A stretch of 64,000 bases of DNA from Candidatus Magasanikiibacteriota bacterium (GTDB lineage Bacteria; Patescibacteriota; Patescibacteriia; Magasanikbacterales; GWA2-37-8), in the NCBI GenBank assembly GCA_016182085.1, contig JACOYB010000005.1, positions 66,061 to 130,060 on the forward strand, given 5' to 3'. Each line of letters starts with the position of its first letter. The stretch's first letter is position 1. Both the position numbers and the translations under genes were made by a program. The notes below the pieces were generated by a model, which had not been told where the DNA came from, made no database searches, and saw only the letters and a program-made list of their open reading frames with translations. Shown here piece after piece: positions 5,312 to 46,058 of the stretch.

Positions 5312-7220
5312 AAAAAGTCTGCAGCCATTGTTTTAAGAGCAGTAAACACCATAAATGATTGCTGTAATCTGCCCGTCCTTTTTTATGGTCTTCCAAAAGT
5401 TTTATAATACAATTTTTATTAAAATATTTATACAGTAAACTATCCGAAACAATCAAACTATCATAGACATAACTGTATAGTTCATTCCGCATCCAAGATC
5501 CGATCGGGATGCCAAAACCAATTTTACGCCGAGCGATGATTTCAGTTGGAATTTTATCTTTTACTATCTCTTTCCAAATCCACTTTACTTGTCCGTTTCT
5601 AACTTTATATTGCTCGGGCAAACTCAAAGCCAATTCTACCAGCCGATGATCTAAAAATGGCGCGCGATTTTCCAAAGCGGAAATCATGCTGGCAAAATCA
5701 ACTTTTAACAAATAATTATCCCCCAGCCTGCCAACGATATCGGCAAGCATCGCTTTATTCATTGTGCCGTAATGCGAAACCCTGCCTTCTCCCCACCACT
5801 GGCGCATTAATTTTTCAGACAAATCAAAATCAATCTGTTCTTTGAGCTCATCAGAATATAAATCGTCTTTGGTCAAATAAAAATGGCTTTGTTTTAATTC
5901 TTTTTTCCAAATTGCGTAATAATCAACATAGGCTTGCTCTAAACTATGGCTCAAGACCTCGGCGCGATAAAATAATTTTTGCAACGATAGTTGGCCGGTA
6001 GCCGCCAGCAACTTTGCGGCTTGTGGAATAATTTTTTTATAAACCACGCCTGGCAAACTTTGATAATTCTTTAAATTTCTTAGAAAAGAATGGTTTGGAT
6101 AACCGCCAAAACATTCATCGGCGCCATCTCCGGTCAAAACCACGGTAACATGCTTTTTTGTTTCCTTGGCCATAATCATCGTTGGCAAGGCGGCATTATC
6201 AAAAAATGGCTCCTCAAATTGATGCACGAGCGCTGGCAAATTTTCTACAACATTTGGCTCAATAATAATTTCCGTATGATCTGTCTTAAATCGATCTGCG
6301 ACAAGTTTTGCAAAAGACAGCTCGCTTTGAGCCTGGTCTTTAAGACCAACTGAGAAAGTTTTTATACTGCTTGTAGATACTTCCGCCATCGCGGCCACAA
6401 CCGAACTTGAATCTAAACCGCCGCTTAAAAAAGCGCCTACCGGCACGTCGCTAATCATTCTGCCTTTAATTGAATCTTTAAATATATCCCAAATATCTTT
6501 TTTCCATTCTTCCAGCGACTTATTTTTATTTTCTTTGGCATAATCAAAAGCTTGCCAGTATGGAGTAACAGAAATATTTCCTTGTCGCCAAATTAAATAA
6601 TGGCCGGCTGGCAATTTTTTAATATGTTTAAATCCGGTCTGGGGCGCTGGCACAAACCGATAGGTCATGGCCAAATCTACCGCCTGCCAATCTGGTTCTC
6701 TGGCCACGCTTGGGTCTATTAAAATTGATTTTAGTTCGGAGGCAAAAATAAATTTCTCTTGATCTGCATAATACTTAAATGGTTTTTCACCCAATCTATC
6801 CCTGGCTGCAAATAAAGTTTGTTCTTGATTATCCCAAATCGCAAACGCAAACATGCCGTTTAACTTATCCAAACATTTTTCTTTCCACTGAATATATGCG
6901 TTTAATAACACCTCTGTATCGCTTTGCGTGTTAAAACTCCAACCCAAGCCGATCAGCTCATTCTTAATTTGTTCGTAATTATAAATTTCACCATTAAAGG
7001 TAATGATAAAACGGCTATCCCGGCTCAGTTTGGGCTGATGACCGCCTGGCGACAAATCAATAATCGCCAAACGACGATGTCCCAAAGCCACAGTCTCTGA
7101 TTGGTTCATCCAGGTGCCATCGCTTTCTGGACCGCGATGCCGCACCGCCAAAAGCATCTTGGCAAAAAGATTTTTATCAATTTTTTGTTTGTTTTGAATA
7201 ACACCGACAATACCGCACAT
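5292..7220 (-). CDS. asnB: Asparagine synthetase (glutamine-hydrolysing) family amidotransferase
   Basis: MCGIVGV N-terminal nucleophile Cys. SGGLDSS PP-loop ATP pyrophosphatase motif. Start set so Cys is residue 2. Confidence 0.9.
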   Translation of the reverse strand: MCGIVGVIQNKQKIDKNLFAKMLLAVRHRGPESDGTWMNQSETVALGHRRLAIIDLSPGGHQPKLSRDSRFIITFNGEIYNYEQIKNELIGLGWSFNTQSDTEVLLNAYIQWKEKCLDKLNGMFAFAIWDNQEQTLFAARDRLGEKPFKYYADQEKFIFASELKSILIDPSVAREPDWQAVDLAMTYRFVPAPQTGFKHIKKLPAGHYLIWRQGNISVTPYWQAFDYAKENKNKSLEEWKKDIWDIFKDSIKGRMISDVPVGAFLSGGLDSSSVVAAMAEVSTSSIKTFSVGLKDQAQSELSFAKLVADRFKTDHTEIIIEPNVVENLPALVHQFEEPFFDNAALPTMIMAKETKKHVTVVLTGDGADECFGGYPNHSFLRNLKNYQSLPGVVYKKIIPQAAKLLAATGQLSLQKLFYRAEVLSHSLEQAYVDYYAIWKKELKQSHFYLTKDDLYSDELKEQIDFDLSEKLMRQWWGEGRVSHYGTMNKAMLADIVGRLGDNYLLKVDFASMISALENRAPFLDHRLVELALSLPEQYKVRNGQVKWIWKEIVKDKIPTEIIARRKIGFGIPIGSWMRNELYSYVYDSLIVSDSLLYKYFNKNCIIKLLEDHKKGRADYSNHLWCLLLLKQWLQTFFAYDKQ

Positions 7221-7345
7221 AAACAATATTTAGAAATTGTTATAAATAAATACTTCCGAAGAGCCTTTGGACAAGACAAGCAAAGCCCCAAGCATTATAG
7301 CGAGCAGCATGCCAAATAATATATTTTTTGCCATGTCCTTAGAAA

Positions 7346-8062
7346 TCATAATTCGCTTGATTCTCCGGCGGTTACGGGCACCGACAGGCCGCTTAAATAT
7401 TTCGCTTTATCGGATATTAAAAATAATACTACTTCGGCAACTTCTTCGGGCGCTACCAAATGTTTCATTGGATTTTTTTCAACCAAAAAATCATCCATAC
7501 GGCCCGGAATATCTTTATTAAGCTTTGTTCTCATAAAACCCGGAGCAACCGCATGTACGCGCACGCCATGAACGAGAAGCTCGTGGTTCATTTGTCGCAA
7601 CACGCCCCGCAAAGCATATTTAGCCGCGACATATCCGCCCATTTTACCAGATGTGTAATTTGGCTCAGTTACGGCTGAGGTAACTCCGATAACCGCGCCA
7701 TGTTTTTGATTTTTCATAACTTGGCCAATTTCTTTCAGCACATTAAAGCCGCCAAAAACCAACGTCTCAAAATCTTCCCGGAATTCTTCGGCGGATAAAT
7801 CCAGCATATGTTGGCGCTTGATTTCCGAGGTAGCAGTGTAAATACAGGCATCAATATTGTTAAACTTTTCAATAATTTGTCTTATGGCTTCTTGTACTTG
7901 CGCCATGTCTCTAATATCACACTTAAAAAATACATATTCTGAATTGGCATCAAAACTTCTGGATATAATCGCTACCGCGTATCCTTGCCCGGCTAATTTT
8001 TTTGCCACAGCCTTGCCGACATCGCCATATCCGCAAACTATAGCTACTTTAGGATTTTTCAT
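7346..8062 (-). CDS. Short-chain dehydrogenase/reductase (3-oxoacyl-ACP reductase-like)
   Basis: N-terminal GxGxxG-like Rossmann segment VAIVCGYGDVGKAVAKKL. SDR YxxxK region (YVAAKYAL). 238 aa. Confidence 0.85.
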   Translation of the reverse strand: MKNPKVAIVCGYGDVGKAVAKKLAGQGYAVAIISRSFDANSEYVFFKCDIRDMAQVQEAIRQIIEKFNNIDACIYTATSEIKRQHMLDLSAEEFREDFETLVFGGFNVLKEIGQVMKNQKHGAVIGVTSAVTEPNYTSGKMGGYVAAKYALRGVLRQMNHELLVHGVRVHAVAPGFMRTKLNKDIPGRMDDFLVEKNPMKHLVAPEEVAEVVLFLISDKAKYLSGLSVPVTAGESSEL

Positions 8063-34157: not shown

Positions 34158-35618
34158 ATGTCTCAAGAAAACGTTATAATCAGCTTTGATAAGGTGAACT
34201 TCGCCTATAACCCAAACAAGCCTATTTTGGAAGAGGCCAGTTTTTCGGTGCGCCAAAATTCCAAAATCACTATCATGGGACAAAACGGCGCCGGCAAAAG
34301 CACGATTTTTAAGCTAATTACCAAAGAAATTAAACCAGAAAGCGGGCAAGCAAATGTAAGTCTGGGCTCCACCATCGCGATTGCTACTCAAGTAATGAAA
34401 CCAGAAAATTTAGAAAAAACCATCGAAGAATTCTTTGCTCAGTTGTTTGATAAAAAAATGTATGATCTGCCAAAACGCATTGCCGAGGTTTTGGACATCG
34501 TACACCTAACTGCTCCGCTTGATAAAAAAATAAAACAATTCTCAGGCGGCCAACAAGCCAGGTTACTTTTGGCATACGCGCTTATTCAAAAACCAGATAT
34601 TTTGCTTTTAGACGAACCAACCAACAATTTAGATACAGCTGGCATAGACCACTTAACCGCATTTCTGATGGCTTATCCAAAAACCTGCTTGGTTATTTCT
34701 CACGATGCCAACTTTTTGAATGCCTTTACCGATGGCGTTTTGTATTTGGATTCTTTTACTCAAAAAGTAGAGCAATACGTGGGCGACTACTACAATGTGC
34801 TCGGAGAAATCGAAGCTCGTATTGAACGCGAACGCGCCAAAAATGCTCAATTGCGCCGCAGTATTCAAGATAGAAAAGACAAAGTAAACTTCTTTGCCAA
34901 TAAAGGCGGTAAGATGCGCGCGCTGGCCAGCAAACTTCGCGACCAAATAGAAGAGGCCGAAGAAAATATGGTGGATGAACGCCAAGAAGACAAAACTATA
35001 AATGATTTTACCATCCCCTCTCAACCAGAAATTATCGGGCCAATGGTAGAAATAAAATCGGTAGGAGTGATGATAGAGAGCGTTCCGGTGCACAAAGCAA
35101 TTTCTCCAGCTATTACGGTTCGCAAAAAACAACGGCTGCTTATCAAAGGGCCAAACGGCATTGGTAAGAGCACGCTTCTGCATGCACTAGCCAGCGGCAC
35201 CGAAGAAGGTGCGATTATTACTCCAGATGTTCGCGTTGGTTATTATCGCCAAGATTTTTCCGGTTTAGATTTTGATAAAACCGCTTATCAAGCCCTAGAA
35301 GAAATGATGCCTAATCCGTGGAACCAGGAAATCTATGCCACGGGCGCGCAGTTTTTGCTTTCTTCTCAAATTTTAAAAAATAAAGTTGGATCGCTATCCG
35401 AAGGACAAAAAGGTTTACTGTGCTATGCCAGATTTGTCTTGCAAAAACCCGGCCTCCTTATTATGGATGAGCCGACCAACCATATAAACTTCCGCCACCT
35501 ACCTATTATCGCCAAGGCCTTGGATGATTTTGAAGGCGCGATAATTCTCGTAAGCCACGTTCCGGAATTTGTGGAACAAATTAAGATTGATCAGGTCTTG
35601 GATTTGGAAACTCTCTAA
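34158..35618 (+). CDS. ABC-F family ATPase (tandem ABC domains, no TMD)
   Basis: Two Walker A motifs (GQNGAGKST and GPNGIGKST), two signature motifs (LSGGQQAR and LSEGQKG) and a charged linker between the domains. Confidence 0.85.
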   Translation: MSQENVIISFDKVNFAYNPNKPILEEASFSVRQNSKITIMGQNGAGKSTIFKLITKEIKPESGQANVSLGSTIAIATQVMKPENLEKTIEEFFAQLFDKKMYDLPKRIAEVLDIVHLTAPLDKKIKQFSGGQQARLLLAYALIQKPDILLLDEPTNNLDTAGIDHLTAFLMAYPKTCLVISHDANFLNAFTDGVLYLDSFTQKVEQYVGDYYNVLGEIEARIERERAKNAQLRRSIQDRKDKVNFFANKGGKMRALASKLRDQIEEAEENMVDERQEDKTINDFTIPSQPEIIGPMVEIKSVGVMIESVPVHKAISPAITVRKKQRLLIKGPNGIGKSTLLHALASGTEEGAIITPDVRVGYYRQDFSGLDFDKTAYQALEEMMPNPWNQEIYATGAQFLLSSQILKNKVGSLSEGQKGLLCYARFVLQKPGLLIMDEPTNHINFRHLPIIAKALDDFEGAIILVSHVPEFVEQIKIDQVLDLETL

Positions 35619-35917
35619 AAACTAAGTGGGGATACCGGGAAACTCCAAAGATTTAATGGCTGCCAGAAGTAATCCACATTATTAAAGCTGGAAGACGACA
35701 TATTTTGCAGATCTACCATAAGCCCGGGCACATCGGAAGACCCGCTTTCCAGGCCAATAGATACATTGCTGAAGTTAACATTGTTTAGATTGGTCACAAC
35801 GCTGGGGGCTTTGATGCCGCGCGTGTTGGCATTTTTAACGGTTACACCGATATAAGCTTAAGCAGGGTTAATCGAGACAGGTGGCAAACTTTTAAAATTT
35901 ATAACATATATTATAAA

Positions 35918-36334
35918 TTATTCTTTTGTATCTGCAGCAGGTTGATTTAAACAAAATTCTATATAATCCCAGTCTTTTACAATATTTGCCCTATTTTTAT
36001 TAGCTTCTTTTAAGCCTTTAACCTGCGTAGAAAACAAACTACTATCATCTGTATTATCAAGTAGAGTAAAAGATGATTTGATACCACTTAGTCTATTTTT
36101 AATAGTTTCACAATCTGTATACGCATTTAAATTATACTGATTTGCTATGTCTACTAACTGATTGGAAAGCATGCTTTGCATAGCAACTCTAGTAAATATC
36201 TTATCGATATCAGAACTTTCAAGTTTTTCAATTCTCACTTCCAAATCCGCAATCTTTTCTTTGTCTTCATTATTTAAATTGCATCCAGTGCCCATCAAAA
36301 TTATAGCCAAACAAACCAATACTATTTTTTTCAT
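35918..36334 (-). CDS. Lipoprotein (hypothetical, coiled-coil)
   Basis: Signal peptide with lipobox LMGTGC. 138 aa. Confidence 0.6.
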   Translation of the reverse strand: MKKIVLVCLAIILMGTGCNLNNEDKEKIADLEVRIEKLESSDIDKIFTRVAMQSMLSNQLVDIANQYNLNAYTDCETIKNRLSGIKSSFTLLDNTDDSSLFSTQVKGLKEANKNRANIVKDWDYIEFCLNQPAADTKE

Positions 36335-36364
36335 AATTAAACATTAAAATGCTTTTACACAGAC

Positions 36365-37210
36365 TTATTCAGGCACACAAGCATCATCTACTTCAACGAA
36401 CCCTCGTTTACAGTACCAACTTGATCCTAACACATAAGCGTTTGACGGTGCGATTACTTTCTCGCAAGAATTATTAACTTCCCTGTAGCCATTCTTACAA
36501 TACCAGCTTGAACCTAATATGTATGCATTCGGAGGGGCGATAACTTTTACACAAGAATCATTTTCTTCTTTATAGCCATTCTTACAATACCAGCTTGAAC
36601 CTAAAACATAGGCGTTCACTGGGGCAATTACCTTTTCACAACTATCGCCTACTTCTTTATATCCATTCTTGCAGTACCACTGAGAGCCTAAAATATATGC
36701 ATCTTTTGGGGCAATAACTTTTTCGCAAGTTTCACCGATCTGTTTGTAACCATTTTTACAATACCACTCTGAACCCAACACATAAGCGTTTAGAGGCGCT
36801 ATTACTTTCTCACAACTCTCGCCCACTTGCCTATACCCATTCTTACAATACCAATCGGATCCTAATACATAACCATTAGCAGGTGCTTTAACTTTTTCAC
36901 AGGTTTCATCAACTTGCTTATAACCATTCTTACATACCCAACCCATACCAGATGTTAATGCATTTTCTGGAACTTTCTTTAACGGACAATCATAACAGTC
37001 TTTATAATATCCGCTTGGTGGATACACAACTCCGCCACCGGCAGGATATGTTGGATATAAGCATGGATGTCCAGCATCTCCACATGTATAAGAACCAGTA
37101 TCAGAAGGACAGGAGTGCCAACGATGACAACCAGAGCGATGGGCAAAAGCAGGTGCTGATAAAGACAATACCCCTAATAAAACAACTAAAGCTAGTATGT
37201 ATTTTTTCAT
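36365..37210 (-). CDS. Secreted cysteine-rich tandem-repeat protein
   Basis: Signal peptide (AFA cleavage site). N-terminal HRSGCHRWHSCPSD motif. About 8 tandem ~27-aa repeats with consensus NAYVLGSxWYCKNGYxxVxxSCEKVIAP, two Cys per repeat. Confidence 0.7.
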   Translation of the reverse strand: MKKYILALVVLLGVLSLSAPAFAHRSGCHRWHSCPSDTGSYTCGDAGHPCLYPTYPAGGGVVYPPSGYYKDCYDCPLKKVPENALTSGMGWVCKNGYKQVDETCEKVKAPANGYVLGSDWYCKNGYRQVGESCEKVIAPLNAYVLGSEWYCKNGYKQIGETCEKVIAPKDAYILGSQWYCKNGYKEVGDSCEKVIAPVNAYVLGSSWYCKNGYKEENDSCVKVIAPPNAYILGSSWYCKNGYREVNNSCEKVIAPSNAYVLGSSWYCKRGFVEVDDACVPE

Positions 37211-37331
37211 AACTCTCTATTACGTTTATATTAAAATCCTATCAAAATTACTAAAATTTTACAATATTACAGTAAATCAGTTTTACCCTACCGAGCTCTA
37301 CTACCAAAAAAGAAAGCAAATAATAAATCGA

Positions 37332-37856
37332 CTAAAATGGTATTTCTTCTTTAACTGTAGGTACTAAATTTAAATTTTTCAAACGATACATCATCGCTTC
37401 CTTACTCACCTGATACTGCTCAGCTAGTTTTTTTAAACTTTCACCATTAACATACAAAGCATCTTTAACTTCTCTTTTAAAATCTTCTACTAAAAACTCT
37501 TCCGGCATTAAAAAATTGGCTGCAAAAAGGTCGGCTCTTTTTTCTTTTTGCGGTTTGTCTGTAAGTGATGTCTTATTTCTATAATCAACTGTTACAGTCT
37601 GATCTGTATCAAAAATAAAATGGGCTAACTCATGGGCTATAGTAAAGCGTATTCTGGATTGTCTTTCATCAGAATTAACCCCCATAAGAACTCCCCCATC
37701 TGATTTTCTGATTAAAACCCCTGAATACTCTTTACTGGGAGCGTAGCTTATATTTATCCCATATTGTGCCACGATATATTCAACAGGCACAGGTGCTTTT
37801 TTAATACCAAAACTATCTAAAATTTCTTTTGTTTTTTCAATAGTTAATTCTTTCAT
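37332..37856 (-). CDS. ImmA/IrrE family zinc metallopeptidase
   Basis: HELAHFIFD is an HEXXH motif. Paired directly with the upstream XRE regulator. Confidence 0.8.
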   Translation of the reverse strand: MKELTIEKTKEILDSFGIKKAPVPVEYIVAQYGINISYAPSKEYSGVLIRKSDGGVLMGVNSDERQSRIRFTIAHELAHFIFDTDQTVTVDYRNKTSLTDKPQKEKRADLFAANFLMPEEFLVEDFKREVKDALYVNGESLKKLAEQYQVSKEAMMYRLKNLNLVPTVKEEIPF

Positions 37857-37860
37857 ATTT

Positions 37861-38205
37861 TTATGCTATCCAACCTAAGATTTTCCCCCATTCTAAAATC
37901 TTCTCATCTTCACTCTTTATATTTTCTATATCAGTCTTACTTAGCGCAACACCTTCTAATCTTTTCGGAAAAAAACCTGACATCTCACACCCTAACAAGG
38001 AAGACAGCTTCCACAGAGTAACGCCGTTTACATTATTTCTGCCATTCTCTATTTGTGAATATGCAACCCTTGTCATGTTTAACGAATTGGCGATAGTTTG
38101 CATGCTTATTTTCCCTCTCAATTTTATGCGTGCAATTTTAATATTTTTAGCTATTTGCTCCTTTATTTCTTTATCCGCTAGATTGCTCATCTTCTTCTTT
38201 GCCAT
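37861..38205 (-). CDS. XRE family helix-turn-helix transcriptional regulator
   Basis: QTIANSLNMTRVAYSQIENGRNNVNGVTLWKLSSLLG is an HTH_3 motif. Confidence 0.8.
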   Translation of the reverse strand: MAKKKMSNLADKEIKEQIAKNIKIARIKLRGKISMQTIANSLNMTRVAYSQIENGRNNVNGVTLWKLSSLLGCEMSGFFPKRLEGVALSKTDIENIKSEDEKILEWGKILGWIA

Positions 38206-38328
38206 ACTTATTATAATATAAGTCTTGCTTTCTTCCTATGTGTACAGAAAGTAATTTTTTATTAACTTATAAACTTTTAATTACTATTAAGATATAAATG
38301 TTTATATATGTAAAACTATAACAAATAC

Positions 38329-38357
38329 TTTACAACTTGTCAAATTAGCGCTAGAAT
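38329..38357 (+). promoter_or_regulatory. Sigma70-like promoter TTTACA-17-TAGAAT in the divergent region upstream of the DUF3892 gene
   Basis: TTTACA at 38329-38334, 17-nt spacer, TAGAAT at 38352-38357. ATG at 38437. Confidence 0.35.
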
Positions 38358-38436
38358 AAGATCAAGTTAAAGGGTTCTTTGCTAAAAAGCTGGTCGATAT
38401 TGAACCCGATTATTCATTAAGCGAATATATAAAAAT

Positions 38437-38733
38437 ATGGCAATCAAAATTAATTGTATCAATAAAGATAATGGCGATCACTATGATCCACACGAGGCTA
38501 TCATTAACCTCGGCTGGCTAGAGGAAGCCACTAACAAGCATGGGGTAAACACTCGGCTAGAAATGGTAGCGTTCATAGAAAATGAGGGGGGCCAAGCATA
38601 TGTCAAAGATGCATATGGAAATAAGGCTTACTTGGTAGTAAGAGAATCTCCGTGGGGAAATAAGTATATGAAAACTATGGCAGATGGTAGAGAAACTAAT
38701 AACTTACTGGCATTATCTGAGTGCCAACGTTAG
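38437..38733 (+). CDS. DUF3892 domain protein
   Basis: 98 aa. CINKDNGDHYDPHEAIINLGW...NNLLALSECQ matches my recollection of the DUF3892 conserved core. Confidence 0.6.
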   Translation: MAIKINCINKDNGDHYDPHEAIINLGWLEEATNKHGVNTRLEMVAFIENEGGQAYVKDAYGNKAYLVVRESPWGNKYMKTMADGRETNNLLALSECQR

Positions 38734-38840
38734 TTCAATAGAAATAGAATAAGGTGGTGGTGCGACTTAGAAACCTAACTGTTGCTCCACCACTCTTCCT
38801 AATACGCGAGCGTAGTCGAACTCGTAACACTTTATTTAAA

Positions 38841-39071
38841 CTAATTAAAAGTATGACACGCATCAGAGGAAACCAAGACGGCCCAAATGGCCGCAATGAA
38901 AGTTACCGCATTGGTAGCAGAAATCATGTCCCACGAGTTCAGGCTGTACGAGAAGTTGAACAAGGTAAACATCCGGGAGCTCATGTGGTAAATATAAACC
39001 ACAGAAATTACGTACGTGATAATCCAGATAGTTCTACAAAAGACAACGTAAATCAAAAATAGGACAGGCAT
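38841..39071 (-). CDS. Small two-helix membrane protein (hypothetical)
   Basis: 76 aa with two hydrophobic segments. The overlapping plus-strand ORF is Arg-rich and looks like antisense noise. Strand choice is uncertain. Confidence 0.3.
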   Translation of the reverse strand: MPVLFLIYVVFCRTIWIITYVISVVYIYHMSSRMFTLFNFSYSLNSWDMISATNAVTFIAAIWAVLVSSDACHTFN

Positions 39072-39337
39072 ATAAAAGAGCCCTTACTGGGTTCTTTTAT
39101 ATTATATGTAAATTAAGCAATAACCAGAAGATTTTTACTCATTTTCTAGATATACACCAGTACATTGCTTTATTTTTACACTAAACGACGATATATGAGT
39201 CGATACTTTGGCTTTAATCAGCTTGTGCATATCGGTTCATTGTCTTTGTTTTTCCTGTATGTTAGAATAATATCGACATTTACCAGTCGATATACAATTT
39301 AAAGACCTAAACCTTTATAATTAAAATATATAAACAA

Positions 39338-39376
39338 ATAACCCTCCCGAATTAGGAAGGGTTATTTTTGTTTTAA
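39338..39376. terminator. Rho-independent terminator hairpin downstream of the DUF378 gene
   Basis: ATAACCCTCC...GGAAGGGTTAT stem flanked by T-runs on both strands. Confidence 0.5.
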
Positions 39377-39382
39377 AAAATT

Positions 39383-39610
39383 CTACATCATCGGTTTTGC
39401 TTCGCAAGCTTTGCAATCTTTTTTGTGGCACAACGCCAATTCTACGGCTGATAAACCAACTAAAACGTATATCACTCTGGAAACCATTGCGCCTTGGCCG
39501 CCGAAAAGCGCGCCTACATCCCAACCAAATAATCCTACCAAGAGCCAGTTTACGCCTCCCACTATTACTAGCGCGAAAGCTACCATATGAAGCCATTTGT
39601 TTTGTTTCAT
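39383..39610 (-). CDS. DUF378 family small membrane protein
   Basis: HMVAFALVIVGGVNWLLVGLFGWDVGALFG matches the DUF378 signature. Start chosen at the Met of MKQNKW, preceded by a perfect GGAGGTG Shine-Dalgarno. Confidence 0.7.
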   Translation of the reverse strand: MKQNKWLHMVAFALVIVGGVNWLLVGLFGWDVGALFGGQGAMVSRVIYVLVGLSAVELALCHKKDCKACEAKPMM

Positions 39611-39693
39611 AATGTCACCTCCTCTCAATACAACTTAAGAGACTACCTTCTACGAACCAAAATCTGACCTGTATATTGTATCACACATTTTCT

Positions 39694-40557
39694 TTATAAT
39701 ACCAACCCTTCCCGATTCTCTTCTTCTTTTCTATTTAGAATATACACATCGGCATTGTATTCGTCATTTCCCACAAACTCGGCTTTTTTGTCTAGGATAG
39801 CTTCCATAGGGGCGCATGTGGAGCAGCCATCACCCGCGGCGCATTTGTACCGTTCCAACTGACGGGCCAATTTTACTTGTCTGGCCACATCCAAAATTCT
39901 TTTATGAGAAGTTTCCAAATCCGGCAGTTCTTTAGGCGAAAGCTGGTCACTGCTATCCAAATACCAATAGCTGGCGCGGCTGGCTTGGCGTTTTTGACAG
40001 TTTTGTACCAAGAGCCTATAAATCGGCAGCTGCAATGATTCGCCGTCTTCTTCGCTCTTGCCGGTTTTAAAATCTATAATATGCACGCTATCGGTATCGG
40101 GCAGATACTCCAGCCAATCTATCTTGCCGCATAAAATAATACTATCCTCTTCGGATAACCAAAATTGCGGCAGATCCATTTGGATTTTTACCGCTAACCC
40201 CGAAATTGGCCCGGGATTATTCATTACCCGTCGTATCATGTCTTGGCCACGAGTTTTGTATTTATATTCTGTTTCCGGGCTGGTAAAACCGCCCTTTTTG
40301 CCGGTTACTTTACCCCAGACCTTTTCAAATTTATCCATCAGCGAATCGGAAAATCTGGAATGCTTAGGTAGTACCGATAATGATTCCAATACTTCATGCA
40401 CGGCCGAACCCAACGCCAAAGCCGGGCTTACTAATTTTATTTTATGATTGGTTTTTGGGTCGCGGTATACGTTTTTTAAGTAATACGCGCGCGGACAGCG
40501 TAAAAAATCGCTTATGGAACTATGCGATACCCAGGTAGCAGTATATTTATCGGGCAT
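39694..40557 (-). CDS. PD-(D/E)XK nuclease with Cas4-like Fe-S cluster cysteines (stand-alone)
   Basis: N-terminal RCPRAYYL. IDWLEY...IIDFKTGK is a PD-(D/E)XK core. C-terminal C-x5-C-x2-C (CAAGDGCSTC). No cas genes or array nearby. Confidence 0.6.
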   Translation of the reverse strand: MPDKYTATWVSHSSISDFLRCPRAYYLKNVYRDPKTNHKIKLVSPALALGSAVHEVLESLSVLPKHSRFSDSLMDKFEKVWGKVTGKKGGFTSPETEYKYKTRGQDMIRRVMNNPGPISGLAVKIQMDLPQFWLSEEDSIILCGKIDWLEYLPDTDSVHIIDFKTGKSEEDGESLQLPIYRLLVQNCQKRQASRASYWYLDSSDQLSPKELPDLETSHKRILDVARQVKLARQLERYKCAAGDGCSTCAPMEAILDKKAEFVGNDEYNADVYILNRKEEENREGLVL

Positions 40558-40562
40558 AAGTT

Positions 40563-40715
40563 ACAATTAAAAGTGTCATCCTGAATTTATTTGCAAGTTG
40601 AGTGAGAGAAAAGTAAATTTTTACTTTTCCGAACGAGCGAAGCAAATATGTTTTAACTATATTTCAGGATCCCCCTGATACCATAAGATCCCGAAACAAG
40701 TTCGGGATGACAGCT
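40563..40715. repeat. Composite palindromic intergenic element (TGTCATCC...GGGATGACAG termini), containing one copy of the GAGTGAG-hairpin-CGAACGA module
   Basis: Terminal inverted motifs gtgtcatcctgaa and ttcgggatgacag. Internal hairpin GATCCCGAAACAAGTTCGGGATG. Internal module GTTGAGTGAGAGAAAAGTAAATTTTTACTTTTCCGAACGAGCGAAG is homologous to the ftsA-upstream tandem repeat. Confidence 0.6.
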
Positions 40716-40881
40716 AGGAATCCAAGGCATCGGCTACAGCGTCTTCTTCGCTTTCGCCTTCATCAAGAAGCCGCACTGCTTTGGCTGCCTGCTCTTCATC
40801 TAAATTAAAATCACTCATCAGTTCGTCAACCGCGGCAGCGACATCTTCTACCGGTTTTTCTTCATCAATTTGATTTTGCAT
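40714..40881 (-). CDS. Small acidic protein (55 aa, hypothetical)
   Basis: ORF MQNQIDEEKPVEDVAAAVDELMSDFNLDEEQAAKAVRLLDEGESEEDAVADALDS, found by hand and below the ORF-track cutoff. Its stop codon lies inside the palindromic element. Confidence 0.3.
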   Translation of the reverse strand: MQNQIDEEKPVEDVAAAVDELMSDFNLDEEQAAKAVRLLDEGESEEDAVADALDS

Positions 40882-41117
40882 ATATTTTTATATTAATTAT
40901 TAAAATTAAAAATTTTTAGTTCGGACATATTCATTTTTTCCCCCATCTCCACTCCGGTTTTTCACCTGTATAATAGCAGATTATAATTAAAATTACAGTG
41001 GATAAAATAAACGGCTTACCAACCTTATCTTACCCGAAAAATAAATTCGTGGCAACATTGACTTTGCTCACTCAGAAGAGTCTGGTGGAACTTATGCAAG
41101 AAAAAGACAAAAAAATT

Positions 41118-41654
41118 TTAATTTAAAGTGAGCAGGCCTGATTTTTCTAAAATATCCTGCCATCTTTTCATTTGATTTTCAGTAAGCCAAGAAAAAACCG
41201 GAATAAATTCCTCTTCCGGCGCGCTTGCTTTATTCTGCTCTTCAATCATTTTTTCAATTACTTCATCAGTTAGCGCGCCATCGTTATTTACAGGATTAAT
41301 TTCGGAAATGGATTCCAACTCATTTTGCTGCATTTGTTTCTCTAAATTTCTAACTTTTATGGCTTTCTGAAACAACACTTTCATTCTGAAACCTTTATCT
41401 AAAATATAGCTATCAACCGCTTCGGCATATAATGATTCAAAATCTTTAATGTGTTCCAAATGTCTTTCTTTATATCCTTTTATCGAGCTTTCACTAATAG
41501 TTATCGCGTCTTCCTCTGAAACTGGAGGCAAACTTAATAACATCATATCCTTTTCTAGGGATTTTTCGCCATCTCTGCAGAATTCTTCAATAAGATTTCT
41601 TAACTGCTTAACTTCTTCAAATTTTTTCTCCATCTTATTTCTTTCGCCTTCCAT
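41118..41654 (-). CDS. Hypothetical coiled-coil protein
   Basis: The long ORF reads through tRNA-Thr. Trimmed to the internal Met (MEGERNK...) downstream of the tRNA. No recognised domain. Confidence 0.45.
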   Translation of the reverse strand: MEGERNKMEKKFEEVKQLRNLIEEFCRDGEKSLEKDMMLLSLPPVSEEDAITISESSIKGYKERHLEHIKDFESLYAEAVDSYILDKGFRMKVLFQKAIKVRNLEKQMQQNELESISEINPVNNDGALTDEVIEKMIEEQNKASAPEEEFIPVFSWLTENQMKRWQDILEKSGLLTLN

Positions 41655-41680
41655 AAAAAAAATATTTACAGTTATACTAG

Positions 41681-41753
41681 AGCCGAGAATGGGGATCGAA
41701 CCCACGACCTGCGGTTTACGATACCGCTGCTCTACCAGCTGAGCTATCTCGGC
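41681..41753 (-). tRNA. tRNA-Thr (anticodon CGT)
   Basis: Hand-folded cloverleaf: acceptor GCCGAGA/TCTCGGC, D-arm GCTC-AGCTGGTA-GAGC, anticodon stem GCGGT/ACCGC with loop ATCGTAA, T-arm GTGGG-TTCGATC-CCCAT. CCA is not encoded. Confidence 0.85.
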
Positions 41754-41759
41754 GTAATT

Positions 41760-41872
41760 CCTTGAGCGGACGATGGGAATCCCCGCCCGCCATCGCAAGC
41801 TTGAGCTTGTTTAGGCGTTGCGGGCGGGGAACCCACGACTCAACCTTGCCTGCCCGCCAGCGCTTCGTTTGA
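41760..41872 (-). other. GC-rich degenerate tRNA-like fragments (pseudo-tRNA remnants)
   Basis: The minus strand contains GTCGTGGGTTCCCCGCCCGC and GGGGATTCCCATCGTCCGCTCAAGG, which resemble T-arm/acceptor halves of the flanking tRNAs. No complete cloverleaf could be folded. Confidence 0.35.
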
Positions 41873-41942
41873 GCGAGTGAAGGGAATCGAACCCTCATCT
41901 CAACCTTGGGAAGGTTGCATACTGCCACTATACTACACTCGC
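41873..41942 (-). tRNA. tRNA-Gly (anticodon CCC)
   Basis: Acceptor GCGAGTG/CACTCGC, anticodon stem CAACC/GGTTG with loop TTCCCAA, T-arm GAGGG-TTCGATT-CCCTC. CCA is not encoded. Confidence 0.8.
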
Positions 41943-42010
41943 GCAGGCGAAGCGGGCGGGGGAGAAGGTCGCGTATTACCATTACACTACGCCCGCATGC
42001 ACAGAGGCTC

Positions 42011-44179: not shown

Positions 44180-45475
44180 TTATTTTTTAACCTCTAAAAG
44201 TATTTCTCGCGCTACTTTACGATCATCCCAAGGGATTTTCTTACCGCCCGCAATCCCAATAAATGGCTCCGTGCCTTTAGCTGTAATCACAACCACATCG
44301 CCCGCCCTAGCCAAAGAAATTGCCTTGGCGATTCCATTTCGCCTATCTACCTCAATAAATAAATTTTCATTATCTTTTTTGCCTGCTTCGCGCGCCCCCT
44401 TGGCCAGCATTTCCGCTATTTCATGAGGGTCTTCGTCATAACAATTTACGTCTGTTACTACCACATAATCCGTGAGTCGTCCGGCAATCTCACCCATTTT
44501 CTCTCTTTTGCCCTTGTCGCGGCCGCCGCCATCGGATCCGACTACGGAAATAACTTTTTTATCCGGCCCAACCATTTGGCGTAAACTTTTAAATAATTCT
44601 GTTAAACTCATGGGTTCATGCGCATAATCTACAATTACTTTAAAATCTTGGCCCGCCTCTACCATTTCCATGCGTCCCTCAACTAACTTTACACTGCTAA
44701 GCCCTGCCGATATTTTGTCTAAAGAAATATTTTGCGACTTAGCTACAGCTACAGCTGCCAAGGCATTATACACATTAAACTCTCCTAAAATATTTAATCT
44801 ATACGTAGCGCCTTCAGCTTCAAAATCTACACCACTATTATCAGACGATACAATACGACCAGCCACATTTGGAACTTGCGGTCTTGTGTTTGTTTCTTTT
44901 ATGCTAAAAGTAAATTTTTTATCAGCTGCAAATTGCAGATAATAATCGGCATTTTTATCATCAATACTCGCCACAATGACTTTTGGCACTTTCTGCCCGC
45001 CTAACACTTTGTTTTTTGTTTTCGTGAGCTCGGCAAAAATCTTACCTTTATCTCTTTTTAAATTTTCAAATCCGCCATGACGTTCGTGATGTTCGGTGCC
45101 TAGGTTGGTAAATACCACGACATCGTAGAGCAAGCCAAAATGGCGATACTGCAAAATACCTTCGGAAGATGTCTCCACCACCACATATTTGCACTCAGCT
45201 TCCACCATTTGTTTTAACATGCTCTGAATCTGCCCGCGGCCAAGCATGGTCATTTTCTTATCATTAAGCCAGCGTTTTTCTCCAATTTGAAATTCAACGG
45301 TACTTAGCAGACCAACTTTAAAACCACCCGCTTCCAAAGCCGAAGCTATAAGGCGGCAGGTCGTAGTCTTGCCTTTTGTGCCCGTGACACCCACGACAAT
45401 TAATTTGCGAGCCGGGCGTCCATAACGCCAATACGCAAGCCAGGCCAGAAACAAATGTATAAATTTTTTTAACAT
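44180..45475 (-). CDS. Mur ligase family protein (MurE/MurF-like)
   Basis: IVVGVTGTKGKTTT is a Mur ligase P-loop, with central and C-terminal Mur ligase regions. 431 aa. Confidence 0.75.
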   Translation of the reverse strand: MLKKFIHLFLAWLAYWRYGRPARKLIVVGVTGTKGKTTTCRLIASALEAGGFKVGLLSTVEFQIGEKRWLNDKKMTMLGRGQIQSMLKQMVEAECKYVVVETSSEGILQYRHFGLLYDVVVFTNLGTEHHERHGGFENLKRDKGKIFAELTKTKNKVLGGQKVPKVIVASIDDKNADYYLQFAADKKFTFSIKETNTRPQVPNVAGRIVSSDNSGVDFEAEGATYRLNILGEFNVYNALAAVAVAKSQNISLDKISAGLSSVKLVEGRMEMVEAGQDFKVIVDYAHEPMSLTELFKSLRQMVGPDKKVISVVGSDGGGRDKGKREKMGEIAGRLTDYVVVTDVNCYDEDPHEIAEMLAKGAREAGKKDNENLFIEVDRRNGIAKAISLARAGDVVVITAKGTEPFIGIAGGKKIPWDDRKVAREILLEVKK

Positions 45476-45482
45476 AACAAAA

Positions 45483-46058
45483 CTATTGTCTCAAACTGAC
45501 TTCATATAAAACCTGCTCCAATTTATGCAGAGCTTGTTTAGCTTGATCAAATTTCTGGCGGTTATAACCGGTTAAATTCATATCAACGAGTTCGCCAATA
45601 ATTTCGTCGGCCGCAGCTCGGCATCTTTTTACTTCTTCAAACTTTTTTTCCGTAGCCGATTTTATGGCATAACGCAAAAGTTCTCCGGGCACATCGCACA
45701 AACCGCCAACAAAAATATCCGTGTCTATCTTGATTTTGGGCAACTTGCCGATAGTTTTCTTCTGCAGATAGCGATTAAACAAAGACGCTTCCACAAACTC
45801 TTCCAAGGCTGCTTTATACGATCCTTCCTCAAAAATTCCCGGCTCTTTCTTATGTTTAATGTTTAAATCCACAATAATTTTTTCCGCCTGAGATAAAAGC
45901 TGCTGAGCTTCACCGGCATCATCTCTTTGCATGGCAAAAATCGCTTTCTTGGAAAGAAACTGCGCCTGGCTGGATTCTTTTATTACTTCCTGCCGCTTAG
46001 CCGCATAGCCCAACAATTCTTGCCGCACTTCGTTAAAATATTTTTTGTCTAGTGTCAT
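45483..46058 (-). CDS. Translin-family protein (putative)
   Basis: 191 aa all-helical protein. GGLCDVPGELLRYAI resembles the translin DxxGELxR catalytic motif. Recognition is from memory. Confidence 0.4.
   Translation of the reverse strand: MTLDKKYFNEVRQELLGYAAKRQEVIKESSQAQFLSKKAIFAMQRDDAGEAQQLLSQAEKIIVDLNIKHKKEPGIFEEGSYKAALEEFVEASLFNRYLQKKTIGKLPKIKIDTDIFVGGLCDVPGELLRYAIKSATEKKFEEVKRCRAAADEIIGELVDMNLTGYNRQKFDQAKQALHKLEQVLYEVSLRQ

What the first reader, a model, noticed from the sequence alone, without database searches (positions are those of the whole stretch)
35800..41660. Island-like accessory segment abutting the tRNA-Thr/tRNA-Gly cluster
Between the ABC-F gene and the tRNAs the gene content switches from biosynthetic and housekeeping to small accessory genes. 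These are a lipoprotein, a secreted Cys-rich repeat protein, an ImmA/XRE pair (the classic mobile-element immunity/repressor module), DUF3892, DUF378, a stand-alone Cas4-like nuclease, a small acidic protein and a coiled-coil protein. Degenerate tRNA-like fragments (41760-41872 and 41943-42010) lie beside the intact tRNAs, consistent with repeated integration at a tRNA site. No integrase was found, so this may be a decayed element or a defence/accessory island.
Basis: partly seen in the sequence, partly recalled or inferred. Interest (0 to 1): 0.6.

Follow-up and report, generated by a model that had tools for sequence, protein, structure and literature searches.

The report
Small defence islet; broken tRNA-Gly nearby
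The supposed 6-kb island beside two tRNA genes is mostly conserved chromosome of a Magasanikbacteria (CPR) bacterium; only a 3.7-kb insert varies between strains and carries an already described type of candidate anti-phage module, and the "tRNA fragments" are pieces of an old tRNA-Gly gene split by two small hairpin insertions.

Summary

- **Conserved part (39.38-41.66 kb).** DUF378, a PD-(D/E)XK nuclease and a small acidic protein keep the same order in five related genomes. The nuclease has more than 7,000 homologues.
- **Variable part (35,669-39,365).** This block lies 2.3 kb from tRNA-Thr, at a synteny breakpoint. A sister genome about 94% identical has an unrelated 1.1 kb there. It is the most compositionally deviant 3.7-kb stretch of the window (z = +5, GC 35%).
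- **Core of the variable block.** An XRE/ImmA operon (PADLOC capP, 2e-31) faces two DUF3892 genes. Lau et al. 2022 described this same architecture as a CapH/CapP-associated "DUF3892 system".
- **Mobility marks.** I found no integrase and no att repeat. Homologous cassettes in relatives sit beside serine recombinases, CBASS, R-M systems or phage genes.
- **The tRNA fragments.** They tile the family's native tRNA-Gly exactly (nt 1-33, 35-54, 55-73). Two paralogous GC-rich hairpin insertions interrupt it, one in the anticodon loop and one in the T loop. The first carries the intact, divergent tRNA-Gly.

The islet is ordinary. The nested tRNA is unusual and unexplained.

The parts
35669..39365 (.). 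Strain-variable islet of 3.7 kb. It sits at a synteny breakpoint between DUF378 and the 3' end of the ABC-F gene.
   Evidence: Sister genome L001 is collinear at 94-95% identity up to both ends and holds an unrelated 1.1 kb here. Tetranucleotide deviation z = +4.96, rank 1 of 121, GC 35.1%. No flanking direct repeats.
35918..36334 (-). Putative lipoprotein, 138 aa (signal peptide followed by Cys).
   Evidence: ORF. No significant family in any library. GC3 0.216. Found only in the identical-strain contig L082.
36365..37210 (-). Secreted Cys-rich protein of 281 aa with six to seven 29-aa repeats.
   Evidence: 87-nt repeats x6. Homologues are modular and widespread in Patescibacteria, and the N-terminal domain is often fused to PG_binding_1. 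GC3 0.28.
37332..37856 (-). ImmA/IrrE-type M78 metallopeptidase (short CapP-like form) with an HELAH motif.
   Evidence: Pfam PF06114 5.9e-22. PADLOC capP 2.4e-31, matching profile positions 8-154 of 242. PHROG metalloprotease and regulator families.
37861..38205 (-). XRE-family HTH repressor (CapH/ImmR-like), 4 nt upstream of the peptidase gene.
   Evidence: Pfam HTH_3 3.2e-9. PADLOC control protein 1.4e-6. PHROG repressor families.
38206..38436 (.). Divergent control region with overlapping back-to-back promoter-like sites and 20-nt direct repeats.
   Evidence: Promoter-like sites: (-) strand TTGACA-17-TATAGT at 38343-38315 (11/12, with TG) and (+) strand TTTACA-17-TAGAAT at 38329-38357 (10/12). 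Repeats at 38260-38279 and 38285-38304.
38437..38733 (+). DUF3892 protein a, 98 aa.
   Evidence: Pfam PF13031 8.6e-9. 344 cluster representatives, mostly stand-alone proteins of about 97 aa.
38754..39062 (+). DUF3892 protein b. The ORF starts at GTG 38754; the likely start is ATG 38853, giving 69 aa.
   Evidence: Pfam PF13031 9.7e-6, matching residues 44-98. A 69-aa gene is called on the identical contig L082.
39383..39628 (-). DUF378 membrane protein; part of the conserved backbone.
   Evidence: Pfam 7.6e-19. Same position in L001, L169, L171 and L179.
39694..40557 (-). PD-(D/E)XK (RecB/AddB-like) nuclease; conserved backbone gene, not a Cas4.
   Evidence: PDDEXK_1 2.4e-24; Cas_Cas4 and TIGR00372 both below their cut-offs. 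7029 homologues, and the top 120 are at least 66% identical over the full length. Syntenic in 5 relatives.
40714..40881 (-). Small acidic protein of 55 aa; backbone gene that evolves fast.
   Evidence: Homologues lie directly upstream of the nuclease gene in L001 (76%), L171, L169 and L173.
40934..41113 (-). Deletion scar. It holds the 3' remnant of an 87-aa gene; the bcp/AhpC gene present in all relatives is missing.
   Evidence: L171's 87-aa protein, residues 60-86, matches 41014-40934 at 74%. AhpC plus the 87-aa gene are present in L001, L169, L171, L173 and L179.
41118..41654 (-). Coiled-coil protein of 178 aa. This is the only lineage-specific gene that really abuts tRNA-Thr.
   Evidence: Present only in L001 (83% identity). 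In L169, L171, L173 and L179, tRNA-Thr is followed directly by AhpC. GC 33%, GC3 0.31.
41680..41753 (-). tRNA-Thr(CGT), intact.
   Evidence: ARAGORN. Rfam 66.5 bits.
41763..41781 (-). Piece 3 (nt 55-73) of the interrupted native tRNA-Gly, called G1 here.
   Evidence: blastn-short against L001's tRNA-Gly: 18 of 19.
41782..41828 (-). Insertion B: a 47-nt GC-rich hairpin (CCCGCCCGC...GCGGGCGGG) in the T loop of G1, after TTC.
   Evidence: L002/L089 carry a near-identical copy with the same arms and a different tip.
41829..41848 (-). Piece 2 (nt 35-54) of G1.
   Evidence: 20 of 20 identical to L001's tRNA-Gly.
41849..41963 (-). Insertion A: 115 nt inside the G1 anticodon, made of 21- and 22-nt inverted-repeat arms around the intact tRNA-Gly(CCC), called G2 here (41871-41942).
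   Evidence: Its arms are homologous to those of insertion B (14/16 and 13/15). G2 is 78-86% identical to the family's G1 type.
41964..41996 (-). Piece 1 (nt 1-33) of G1.
   Evidence: 32 of 33 identical to L001's tRNA-Gly. The joined pieces fold as a cloverleaf with a 2-nt anticodon.

Best explanation
The segment is a mosaic on a conserved Magasanikbacteria backbone. It is not one element integrated at the tRNAs.

(1) Backbone, 39.38-41.66 kb. DUF378, the PD-(D/E)XK nuclease and the acidic protein are vertically inherited. The window also has a lineage-specific coiled-coil gene next to tRNA-Thr and has lost bcp.

(2) Variable islet, 35,669-39,365. It occupies a slot downstream of DUF378 where relatives carry other cargo, such as an HpaII-type R-M system or a giant LTD protein.
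- Its functional core is an XRE repressor plus ImmA/M78 peptidase operon transcribed away from two DUF3892 genes. This is the "CapH/CapP-like + two DUF3892" architecture already catalogued as a candidate defence system.
- Proposed working, inferred by analogy with CapH/CapP, ImmR/ImmA and DdrO/IrrE: the repressor binds the shared 231-bp control region and silences both promoters. DNA damage or phage infection activates the peptidase, which cuts the repressor in its C-terminal part. The DUF3892 pair is then expressed.
- The DUF3892 proteins have a predicted fold like the dsRNA-binding domain and ribosome hibernation factors. They would bind RNA or ribosomes and slow the cell.
- The downstream secreted Cys-rich protein and lipoprotein are passenger surface proteins of similar low GC3.

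(3) The tRNA fragments. They are one native tRNA-Gly gene (G1) inactivated by two paralogous inverted-repeat hairpin insertions, each placed after the TTC of a 7-nt loop. The anticodon-loop copy carries a divergent but complete tRNA-Gly (G2) that now supplies the function. This is a gene replacement at the tRNA-Gly locus and is unrelated to the 3.7-kb islet.
For: Shown here:
- Collinearity with L001, with breakpoints at 39365 and 35669, 51 nt past the ABC-F stop.
- Synteny Translin-MurE-PH-DivIC-PpiC-tRNAs-AhpC-small-acidic-PDDEXK-DUF378 in L169, L171, L173 and L179.
- 7029 nuclease homologues.
- FtsEX, which follow DUF378 in relatives, are absent from the window.
- The block is the compositional outlier of the window.
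- capP and control-protein HMM matches.
- Divergent gene orientation and overlapping promoter-like sites.
- Literature description of the same four-gene architecture and of the regulatory mechanism.
- The predicted DUF3892 fold, from the literature.
- ImmA homologues of 53-89% identity in five different contexts: serine recombinases, CBASS, R-M, Schlafen/amidase and phage-like genes.
- The G1 pieces tile nt 1-33, 35-54 and 55-73.
- The nested fold has MFE -111 kcal/mol, z = -4.4.
- The arms of A and B are homologous.
- G2 lies outside the family's G1 cluster.
- The joined G1 gives "tRNA-???" with anticodon (cc); adding one C restores tRNA-Gly.
Against: - No experiment and no transcript data.
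- The peptidase (174 aa, no Cys) lacks both the GAF domain and the cysteine switch of characterised CapP, so activation by ssDNA is an assumption.
- DUF3892 function has never been tested. My single-sequence structure model was unusable (pLDDT 47.7), and no solved relative exists.
- The direction of the event (gain in the window or loss in L001) rests on composition and on one sister genome only.
- The nested tRNA is seen in one assembly. Only insertion B is independently confirmed, in L002 and L089.
- Sampling of close relatives is thin. The genome and metagenome scans yielded only L001, L002, L003, L004 and L089.
Confidence: 0.7

Rival explanations
1. One reading: the whole 35.8-41.66 kb is one decayed integrative element or defence island that entered at the tRNA-Thr/tRNA-Gly site, and the tRNA fragments are its att scars.
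For: Small accessory-looking genes, an XRE/ImmA pair and real tRNA fragments are nearby. tRNA-Thr(CGT) is used as an integration site in a relative (L003, 35-nt direct repeat). The coiled-coil gene next to tRNA-Thr is lineage-specific.
Against: The tRNA-proximal genes are syntenic in five relatives, and the nuclease is a conserved core gene. There is no boundary at the tRNA-Thr 3' end in L001. No att repeat exists and no recombinase. The fragments lie on the other side of tRNA-Thr and tile a tRNA-Gly gene.
Confidence: 0.04
2. The XRE/ImmA pair is the immunity (ImmR/ImmA-type) module of a prophage or integrative element that has since been deleted. The DUF3892 genes would be its early or anti-repressor genes rather than a defence effector, and the block a dead remnant with no present function.
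For: PHROG repressor and metalloprotease families match. The 60%-identical homologue P0005 sits among phage-like genes: ParB-methylase, GIY-YIG, SNase and M23. The 89%-identical homologue lies about 6 kb from two large serine recombinases. DUF3892a matches a PHROG of unknown function.
Against: All four ORFs are intact, with a well-formed divergent promoter region. The same four-gene unit recurs as a self-contained module in unrelated bacteria. There is no hit in IMG/VR, and no other phage gene or recombinase in the window.
Confidence: 0.2
3. The 3.7-kb block is ancestral to the window/L001 lineage and L001 replaced it, so the difference reflects loss rather than gain.
For: Only one sister genome is available. 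L001 also differs by other small gene indels: a 242-aa gene, bcp, and the tRNA-Gly leader.
Against: The block has the lowest GC3 and the strongest tetranucleotide deviation in the window. None of its genes occurs at this locus in L169, L171, L173 or L179. A cassette 89% identical lies elsewhere in another genome.
Confidence: 0.12
4. The nested tRNA-Gly is functional rather than a wreck. Either it is a structured precursor in which the GC-rich stems direct processing of G2 (and perhaps joining of the G1 pieces), or it is a small mobile hairpin element that targets tRNA-Gly loops and can carry a replacement tRNA.
For: The three pieces tile exactly, and each insertion extends its loop as a long helix. 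The two insertions are paralogues with inverted-repeat ends, both inserted after TTC. Insertion B plus piece 3 is 59 of 61 identical in L002/L089, although proteins there are 60% identical and the G1 5' part is gone. Hairpins clamped by CCCGCC...GGCGGG occur only at tRNA-Gly loci in about 200 kb of related DNA.
Against: One nucleotide of the anticodon is missing, so simple excision cannot restore G1. There is no bulge-helix-bulge at either junction and no group I intron. No further copies occur in the 64-kb window. The viral-contig matches are chance hits. There is a single instance of the tRNA-carrying form.
Confidence: 0.1

Closest known systems
CapH/CapP-associated "DUF3892 system" (Sulfitobacter sp. 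CW3; Lau et al. 2022, bioRxiv 10.1101/2022.04.27.489752, Fig. 6F)
   Same: Four genes: an HTH repressor and an M78 peptidase in one operon, placed upstream of and on the opposite strand to two DUF3892 genes.
   Different: The peptidase here is a short 174-aa form without the GAF domain or the cysteine switch. The host is a CPR bacterium. Two secreted-protein genes follow the peptidase gene. Nothing about the system has been tested in any organism.
ImmR/ImmA of ICEBs1 and DdrO/IrrE of Deinococcus (named; details from established knowledge)
   Same: An XRE repressor gene immediately followed by an HExxH M78 peptidase gene. The peptidase size (about 170 aa) is like ImmA. The logic of de-repression by cleaving the repressor is the same.
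   Different: No integrase, excisionase, conjugation or DNA-repair regulon is attached here.
Genomic islands integrated at tRNA genes (anticodon-loop and T-loop crossover classes; Williams 2002, from my own knowledge)
   Same: The two insertions in G1 lie exactly in the anticodon loop and the T loop, the two classical crossover sub-sites. Relatives carry variable cargo between tRNA-Gly and tRNA-Thr.
   Different: No integrase is present. There is no duplicated 3' tRNA segment. The insertions are only 47 and 115 nt long and have inverted-repeat ends. The 3.7-kb islet is not at a tRNA.
Archaeal multi-intron and split tRNA genes (Thermoproteales; Nanoarchaeum and Caldivirga) (from my own knowledge)
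   Same: A tRNA gene broken into three exactly tiling pieces, with GC-rich complementary sequences at the breaks, including one in the T loop.
   Different: There is no bulge-helix-bulge motif. The host is a bacterium. An anticodon nucleotide is lost. The first "intron" contains a complete tRNA.
Group I introns in Patescibacteria tRNA genes (Nakagawa et al. 2026, PMC13011429)
   Same: An interruption of a tRNA anticodon loop in the same phylum, at position 33/35 here versus 35/36 in that work.
   Different: No group I intron is detected by Rfam. The insert is 115 nt and is mostly a tRNA. The host tRNA is tRNA-Gly, not tRNA-Asn or tRNA-Asp.

Membership tests
tRNA-integrated genomic island | Integrase or recombinase gene at one end | tested here: not met
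   No such Pfam family in any ORF of 31.8-46 kb. tblastn with a large serine recombinase (L083) and E. coli XerD found no hit at E<=1 in the whole window.
tRNA-integrated genomic island | Direct repeat of the tRNA 3' end (attL/attR) bounding the island | tested here: not met
   The 26-mer of the tRNA-Thr 3' end with up to 3 mismatches occurs only in the gene itself. blastn-short finds only chance matches of 12 nt or less outside 41.68-42.0 kb. Positive control: a 35-nt repeat in L003.
tRNA-integrated genomic island | Presence/absence boundary at the tRNA when compared with relatives | tested here: not met
   L001 is collinear across tRNA-Thr into the coiled-coil gene. The variable block starts 2.3 kb away, at 39365.
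tRNA-integrated genomic island | Atypical composition and strain-variable presence | tested here: met
   Met only for 35669-39365: z = +4.96, GC 35.1%, GC3 0.22-0.29. The block is replaced in L001.
CapH/CapP-regulated defence operon | Adjacent HTH repressor and HExxH M78 peptidase genes | tested here: met
   HTH_3 3.2e-9 and Peptidase_M78 5.9e-22. PADLOC capP 2.4e-31. An HELAH motif is visible in the translation.
CapH/CapP-regulated defence operon | Regulator pair upstream of, and on the opposite strand to, the regulated operon | tested here: met
   XRE-ImmA lie on (-) and the two DUF3892 genes on (+), separated by 231 bp with back-to-back promoter-like sites. The criterion is quoted.
CapH/CapP-regulated defence operon | CapP three-domain architecture (peptidase, linker, GAF) and cysteine switch | tested here: not met
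   The protein has 174 aa and matches profile positions 8-154 of 242. It contains no cysteine. The architecture is as described, and the cysteine switch is present in only 33% of CapPs.
CapH/CapP-regulated defence operon | ssDNA-stimulated cleavage of the repressor; de-repression on DNA damage | not testable with these tools
   Needs biochemistry or reporter assays.
Cas4 | Score above the family cut-off and cas1/cas2/CRISPR neighbours | tested here: not met
   Cas_Cas4 14.6 bits against a cut-off of 22.7. TIGR00372 32.9 bits against 65. The neighbours are DUF378 and an acidic protein in all relatives.
Group I intron in tRNA | Match to the Rfam group I intron covariance model | tested here: not met
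   cmscan at E<=1 over 30-48 kb returned only the two tRNAs and one weak L10-leader match.
Archaeal-type (BHB) tRNA intron or split tRNA | Bulge-helix-bulge motif at the exon-intron junctions | tested here: not met
   In the predicted fold, insertion B continues the T stem as an uninterrupted helix. The junction of insertion A shows a 1-nt bulge and a 2x2 internal loop, not a 3-4-3 motif.

The most novel reading that the evidence does not exclude
The two GC-rich inverted-repeat insertions would be copies of a previously undescribed miniature element. It would insert after the TTC of hairpin loops of tRNA-Gly genes, have ends that mimic that tRNA's acceptor stem, and be able to carry a complete replacement tRNA-Gly. 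It would in effect be a self-compensating "tRNA-swapping" element, or the stems would be retained as processing or stability signals for the tRNA transcript. Near-identical copies in genomes whose proteins are only 60% identical would then reflect lateral spread or selection.
Probability: 0.12. Interest if true: 0.75.

Novelty: new member of a known kind. Interest (0 to 1): 0.38.

Why it matters
- **Annotation.** Clusters of small genes beside tRNAs in CPR genomes should not be read as islands without comparison to relatives. Here most of them are conserved backbone.
- **The islet.** It adds a Patescibacteria example of the CapH/CapP-type switch coupled to two DUF3892 genes. That supports the view that this four-gene unit is a portable, self-contained module even in very small genomes. 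It also gives a minimal peptidase form, without a GAF domain, for testing how such switches sense stress.
- **The tRNA-Gly locus.** It is the less ordinary part. A working tRNA gene sits inside the anticodon of its inactivated predecessor. Together with other tRNA 5'-fragment duplications in relatives, one of them around a GIY-YIG gene, this suggests that tRNA genes in this lineage are repeatedly targeted and replaced. That bears on how reduced genomes keep a complete tRNA set.

Tried and rejected
- **IMG/VR scan with the ImmA protein.** No relative was found.
- **IMG/VR scan with the 18-nt left arm of insertion B.** Four hits, all in GC-rich contigs (55-64% GC) without the palindromic partner or a tRNA, so chance.
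- **Metagenome scan with PpiC.** Only one true relative (L089, the same species as L002); the rest were generic PPIase domains.
- **AlphaFold2 of DUF3892a without an alignment.** pLDDT 47.7, so it was not used and no fold search was run.
- **PDB sequence search.** Nothing was found.
- **Group I intron and BHB-intron readings of the tRNA insertions.** Rejected.
- **Tandem-duplication-plus-deletion origin of the fragments.** I considered it and judged it unlikely, because the three pieces tile G1 with no overlap or gap apart from one nucleotide.
- **Simple chimeric assembly through the 17-nt stretch shared by G1 and G2.** Rejected, because the junctions carry extra arms absent from both tRNAs, and because two independent assemblies contain insertion B.
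- **Cys-rich protein as part of the mobile cassette.** Not supported. Its homologues are widespread and modular, and none was a close match from the contig that holds the 89%-identical ImmA.
- **Weak L10-leader hit at 39324-39465.** E = 0.24, below the gathering score, so treated as chance.

Full report
**What is there.** The window is a low-GC (about 39%) Patescibacteria chromosome. An identical ImmA protein is named by NCBI as coming from a Candidatus Magasanikbacteria MAG.

- putative lipoprotein;
- secreted Cys-rich protein with six 87-nt repeats;
- ImmA/M78 peptidase;
- XRE repressor;
- two DUF3892 proteins;
- DUF378;
- a PD-(D/E)XK nuclease;
- a 55-aa acidic protein;
- a coiled-coil protein.

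tRNA-Thr(CGT) at 41680-41753 and tRNA-Gly(CCC) at 41871-41942 are intact on the minus strand.

**Comparison with the sister genome.** A genome-collection scan with the PpiC protein, whose gene lies next to the tRNAs, found contig CAZUFD010000010 (L001). It is 94-95% identical in DNA and collinear with the window. It shares tRNA-Thr, the coiled-coil gene (83% aa), the acidic protein (76%), the nuclease (98.6%), DUF378 (97.5%) and ABC-F (96.7%) in the same order. No boundary exists at the 3' end of tRNA-Thr.

The two genomes differ at four small places:
- Window 35669-39365 (3.7 kb, lipoprotein through the second DUF3892 gene) is replaced in L001 by an unrelated 1.1 kb. Homology stops just past the DUF378 stop codon and resumes 51 nt past the ABC-F stop. 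No repeats flank the block.
- L001 has bcp/AhpC and an 87-aa gene where the window keeps only about 100 bp.
- L001 has a 242-aa gene between the translin and MurE genes.
- The tRNA-Gly region differs, as described below.

**Wider family.** The nuclease has 7029 homologues at E<=1e-10. The best 120 are all at least 66% identical over their full length, so it is a conserved lineage gene. It scores below the Cas4 cut-offs.

Loci around homologues of 81-87% identity (L169, L171, L173, L179) share one backbone. The order is Translin, MurE, a PH-like protein, DivIC, PpiC, tRNA-Gly, tRNA-Thr, AhpC, an 87-aa protein, the acidic protein, PD-(D/E)XK, DUF378, then FtsE-FtsX. The 39.38-40.88 kb part of the "island" is therefore vertically inherited.

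The window has lost bcp. A 27-residue remnant of the 87-aa gene survives at 40934-41014. The coiled-coil gene occurs only in the window and L001. In the other four relatives, tRNA-Thr is followed directly by AhpC, so this 0.5-kb gene is the only accessory DNA that truly abuts tRNA-Thr.

FtsEX and the genes that follow them in relatives are absent from the window. The junction after DUF378 is therefore a synteny breakpoint. The same slot holds an HpaII-type R-M pair in L179 and a 1273-aa LTD protein in L169.

**Composition.** 35669-39365 is the most deviant 3.7-kb stretch of the 64-kb window. Its tetranucleotide distance has z = +4.96 (rank 1 of 121) and its GC is 35.1%. GC3 is 0.22-0.29 for the lipoprotein, Cys-rich and ImmA genes, against about 0.38 elsewhere. 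Part of the tetranucleotide signal may come from the internal repeats; GC3 is not affected in that way.

**Tests for integration.**
- No copy of the tRNA-Thr 3' end occurs elsewhere, with up to 3 mismatches in 26 nt.
- blastn-short with both tRNAs finds only chance matches of 12 nt or less outside the tRNA locus.
- No recombinase is detectable.
- The signature can be detected when it is present. In L003, a perfect 35-nt direct repeat containing the tRNA-Thr 3' end lies 138 nt downstream of the gene.

**What the variable block is.** XRE and ImmA form an operon on the minus strand with a 4-nt gap. The two DUF3892 genes run the other way. The 231-bp spacer holds overlapping back-to-back promoter-like sites (11/12 and 10/12 matches) and 20-nt repeats.

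PADLOC matches ImmA to capP (2.4e-31) and XRE to a control protein. Lau et al. (bioRxiv 10.1101/2022.04.27.489752) list, among operons regulated by CapH/CapP-like pairs, a "DUF3892 system" made of a CapP-like protein, a CapH-like protein and two DUF3892 proteins. They state that the regulator pair lies upstream of its operon and on the opposite strand. That is the arrangement seen here.

Their work shows that CapH represses the promoter until CapP cleaves it, and that ssDNA produced by DNA damage stimulates CapP. The peptidase here is a short form (174 aa, no cysteine, profile positions 8-154 of 242). It lacks the GAF domain and the cysteine switch and resembles ImmA in size, so the trigger is inferred rather than shown.

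The Aravind group describes DUF3892 as having a three-stranded meander plus helix, like the dsRNA-binding domain and ribosome hibernation factors. They propose that it senses viral RNA or modified ribosomes. Induced DUF3892 binding RNA or ribosomes to impose dormancy is my best guess for the effector step, and it is untested. DUF3892a belongs to a small family of mostly stand-alone proteins of about 97 aa.

**Mobility of the cassette.** ImmA homologues of 53-89% identity lie with an XRE gene and a divergent DUF3892 or DUF2188 gene in five unrelated neighbourhoods:
- near two large serine recombinases beside TsaD (89% identity);
- between a CBASS operon and a large serine recombinase downstream of tRNA-Glu;
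- next to a type II R-M pair;
- next to Schlafen/AlbA and amidase genes downstream of tRNA-Glu;
- among phage-like genes.

The cassette is therefore portable and is associated with defence or mobile elements. In the window it has no recombinase.

The Cys-rich protein belongs to a modular family of secreted proteins that is widespread in Patescibacteria and is not tied to the cassette.

**The tRNA fragments.** L001's tRNA-Gly (G1) represents the family type, 88-97% identical among L001, L169, L171, L173 and L179. It maps to the window as three collinear pieces that tile it exactly:

| G1 nucleotides | Window coordinates |
|---|---|
| 1-33 | 41996-41964 |
| 35-54 | 41848-41829 |
| 55-73 | 41781-41763 |

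. Two insertions lie between the pieces:
- **Insertion A (115 nt)** sits inside the anticodon. It consists of 21- and 22-nt inverted-repeat arms around the intact tRNA-Gly (G2).
- **Insertion B (47 nt)** is a GC-rich hairpin in the T loop.

Both follow the TTC of a 7-nt loop, and their arms are homologous (14/16 and 13/15). The whole 247 nt folds as a G1 cloverleaf with two extra arms, with G2 at the tip of the first (MFE -111 kcal/mol, z = -4.4).

Joining the pieces gives a cloverleaf with a 2-nt anticodon. ARAGORN reports "tRNA-???" for it, and adding one C restores tRNA-Gly. G1 is therefore a pseudogene and G2 is the working gene. G2 is 78-86% identical to the family type, and its acceptor and T arms match those of the distant L003, which points to replacement by a foreign allele.

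These insertions are not group I introns and not BHB introns.

L002 and L089 are two independent assemblies of a species whose PpiC is 60% identical. Each has its own tRNA-Gly, then a decayed spacer, then a near-identical insertion B and G1 piece 3. They lack the G1 5' piece. The hairpin is therefore real and is either selected or laterally spread.

GC-clamped hairpins of this kind occur only at tRNA-Gly loci in about 200 kb of related DNA and nowhere else in the window.

I cannot explain why the terminal 7-mers of the insertions equal the acceptor-stem strands of G1.

**Verdict.** The island is narrower than proposed, does not abut the tRNAs, and is of a known kind. The tRNA fragments are a separate and more unusual feature whose mechanism remains open.

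Noticed in passing
L084 7116-7500 (same DNA in L083): A 22-nt copy of the tRNA-Glu 5' end is followed by an 83-aa GIY-YIG ORF (7191-7442) and then the intact tRNA-Glu (7428-7500). This sits beside a CBASS / XRE-ImmA / large serine recombinase island. It looks like a homing-endonuclease-type insertion into a tRNA gene.
   Followed up: partly
L003 7804-7838 and 7942-7976: A perfect 35-nt direct repeat that includes the 3' end of tRNA-Thr(CGT). This is a classical att-type scar around a remnant of about 100 nt, in a distant Magasanikiibacteriota genome.
   Followed up: partly
L001 4492-4565 and L169 7926-8000: A 14-nt copy of the tRNA-Gly 5' end and a hairpin leader of about 61 nt lie directly upstream of the intact tRNA-Gly. 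The copy carries the same G3-to-A change as the tRNA in L169, and the hairpin differs by compensatory changes. The window lacks this leader.
   Followed up: partly
L179 7689-7745: A 57-nt hairpin clamped by CCCGCC...GGCGGG lies 6 nt upstream of an intact G1-type tRNA-Gly. It resembles the arms of the window's insertions.
   Followed up: partly
window 40934-41113: bcp/AhpC and most of an 87-aa gene, present in all five relatives, have been deleted from the window. A 27-residue remnant is left.
   Followed up: yes
L001 258-986 versus window 45469-45489: The sister genome has an extra 242-aa gene of unknown function between the translin-like and MurE genes.
   Followed up: partly
L169 8073-8543, L179 7824-8577, L171 4665-7648, L004 11130-13690: The interval between tRNA-Gly and tRNA-Thr holds different cargo in each relative: a 130-aa gene, a 161-aa gene, a 927-aa Ig-like surface protein, and 2.5 kb with SDR and other genes. 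In the window it holds only tRNA debris.
   Followed up: partly
window 41680-41753 versus L169, L171, L173, L179: tRNA-Thr(CGT) of the window and L001 is a different sequence type from the one in the four other family members, whose T loop reads TCCGATT. This suggests that the tRNA-Thr gene has also been replaced within the family.
   Followed up: no
window 39694-40557: The stand-alone PD-(D/E)XK nuclease is unusually conserved for this lineage: 98.6% identity to L001 and 81-87% to genomes whose PpiC is about 62% identical. It is always preceded by a tiny acidic protein, which hints at a housekeeping pair of unknown role.
   Followed up: partly
window 35615-35797 (-): A 60-aa ORF overlaps the ABC-F stop. 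Only its last 17 residues are shared with an equivalent ORF in L001, because the breakpoint of the variable block falls inside it. It is probably not a gene.
   Followed up: no
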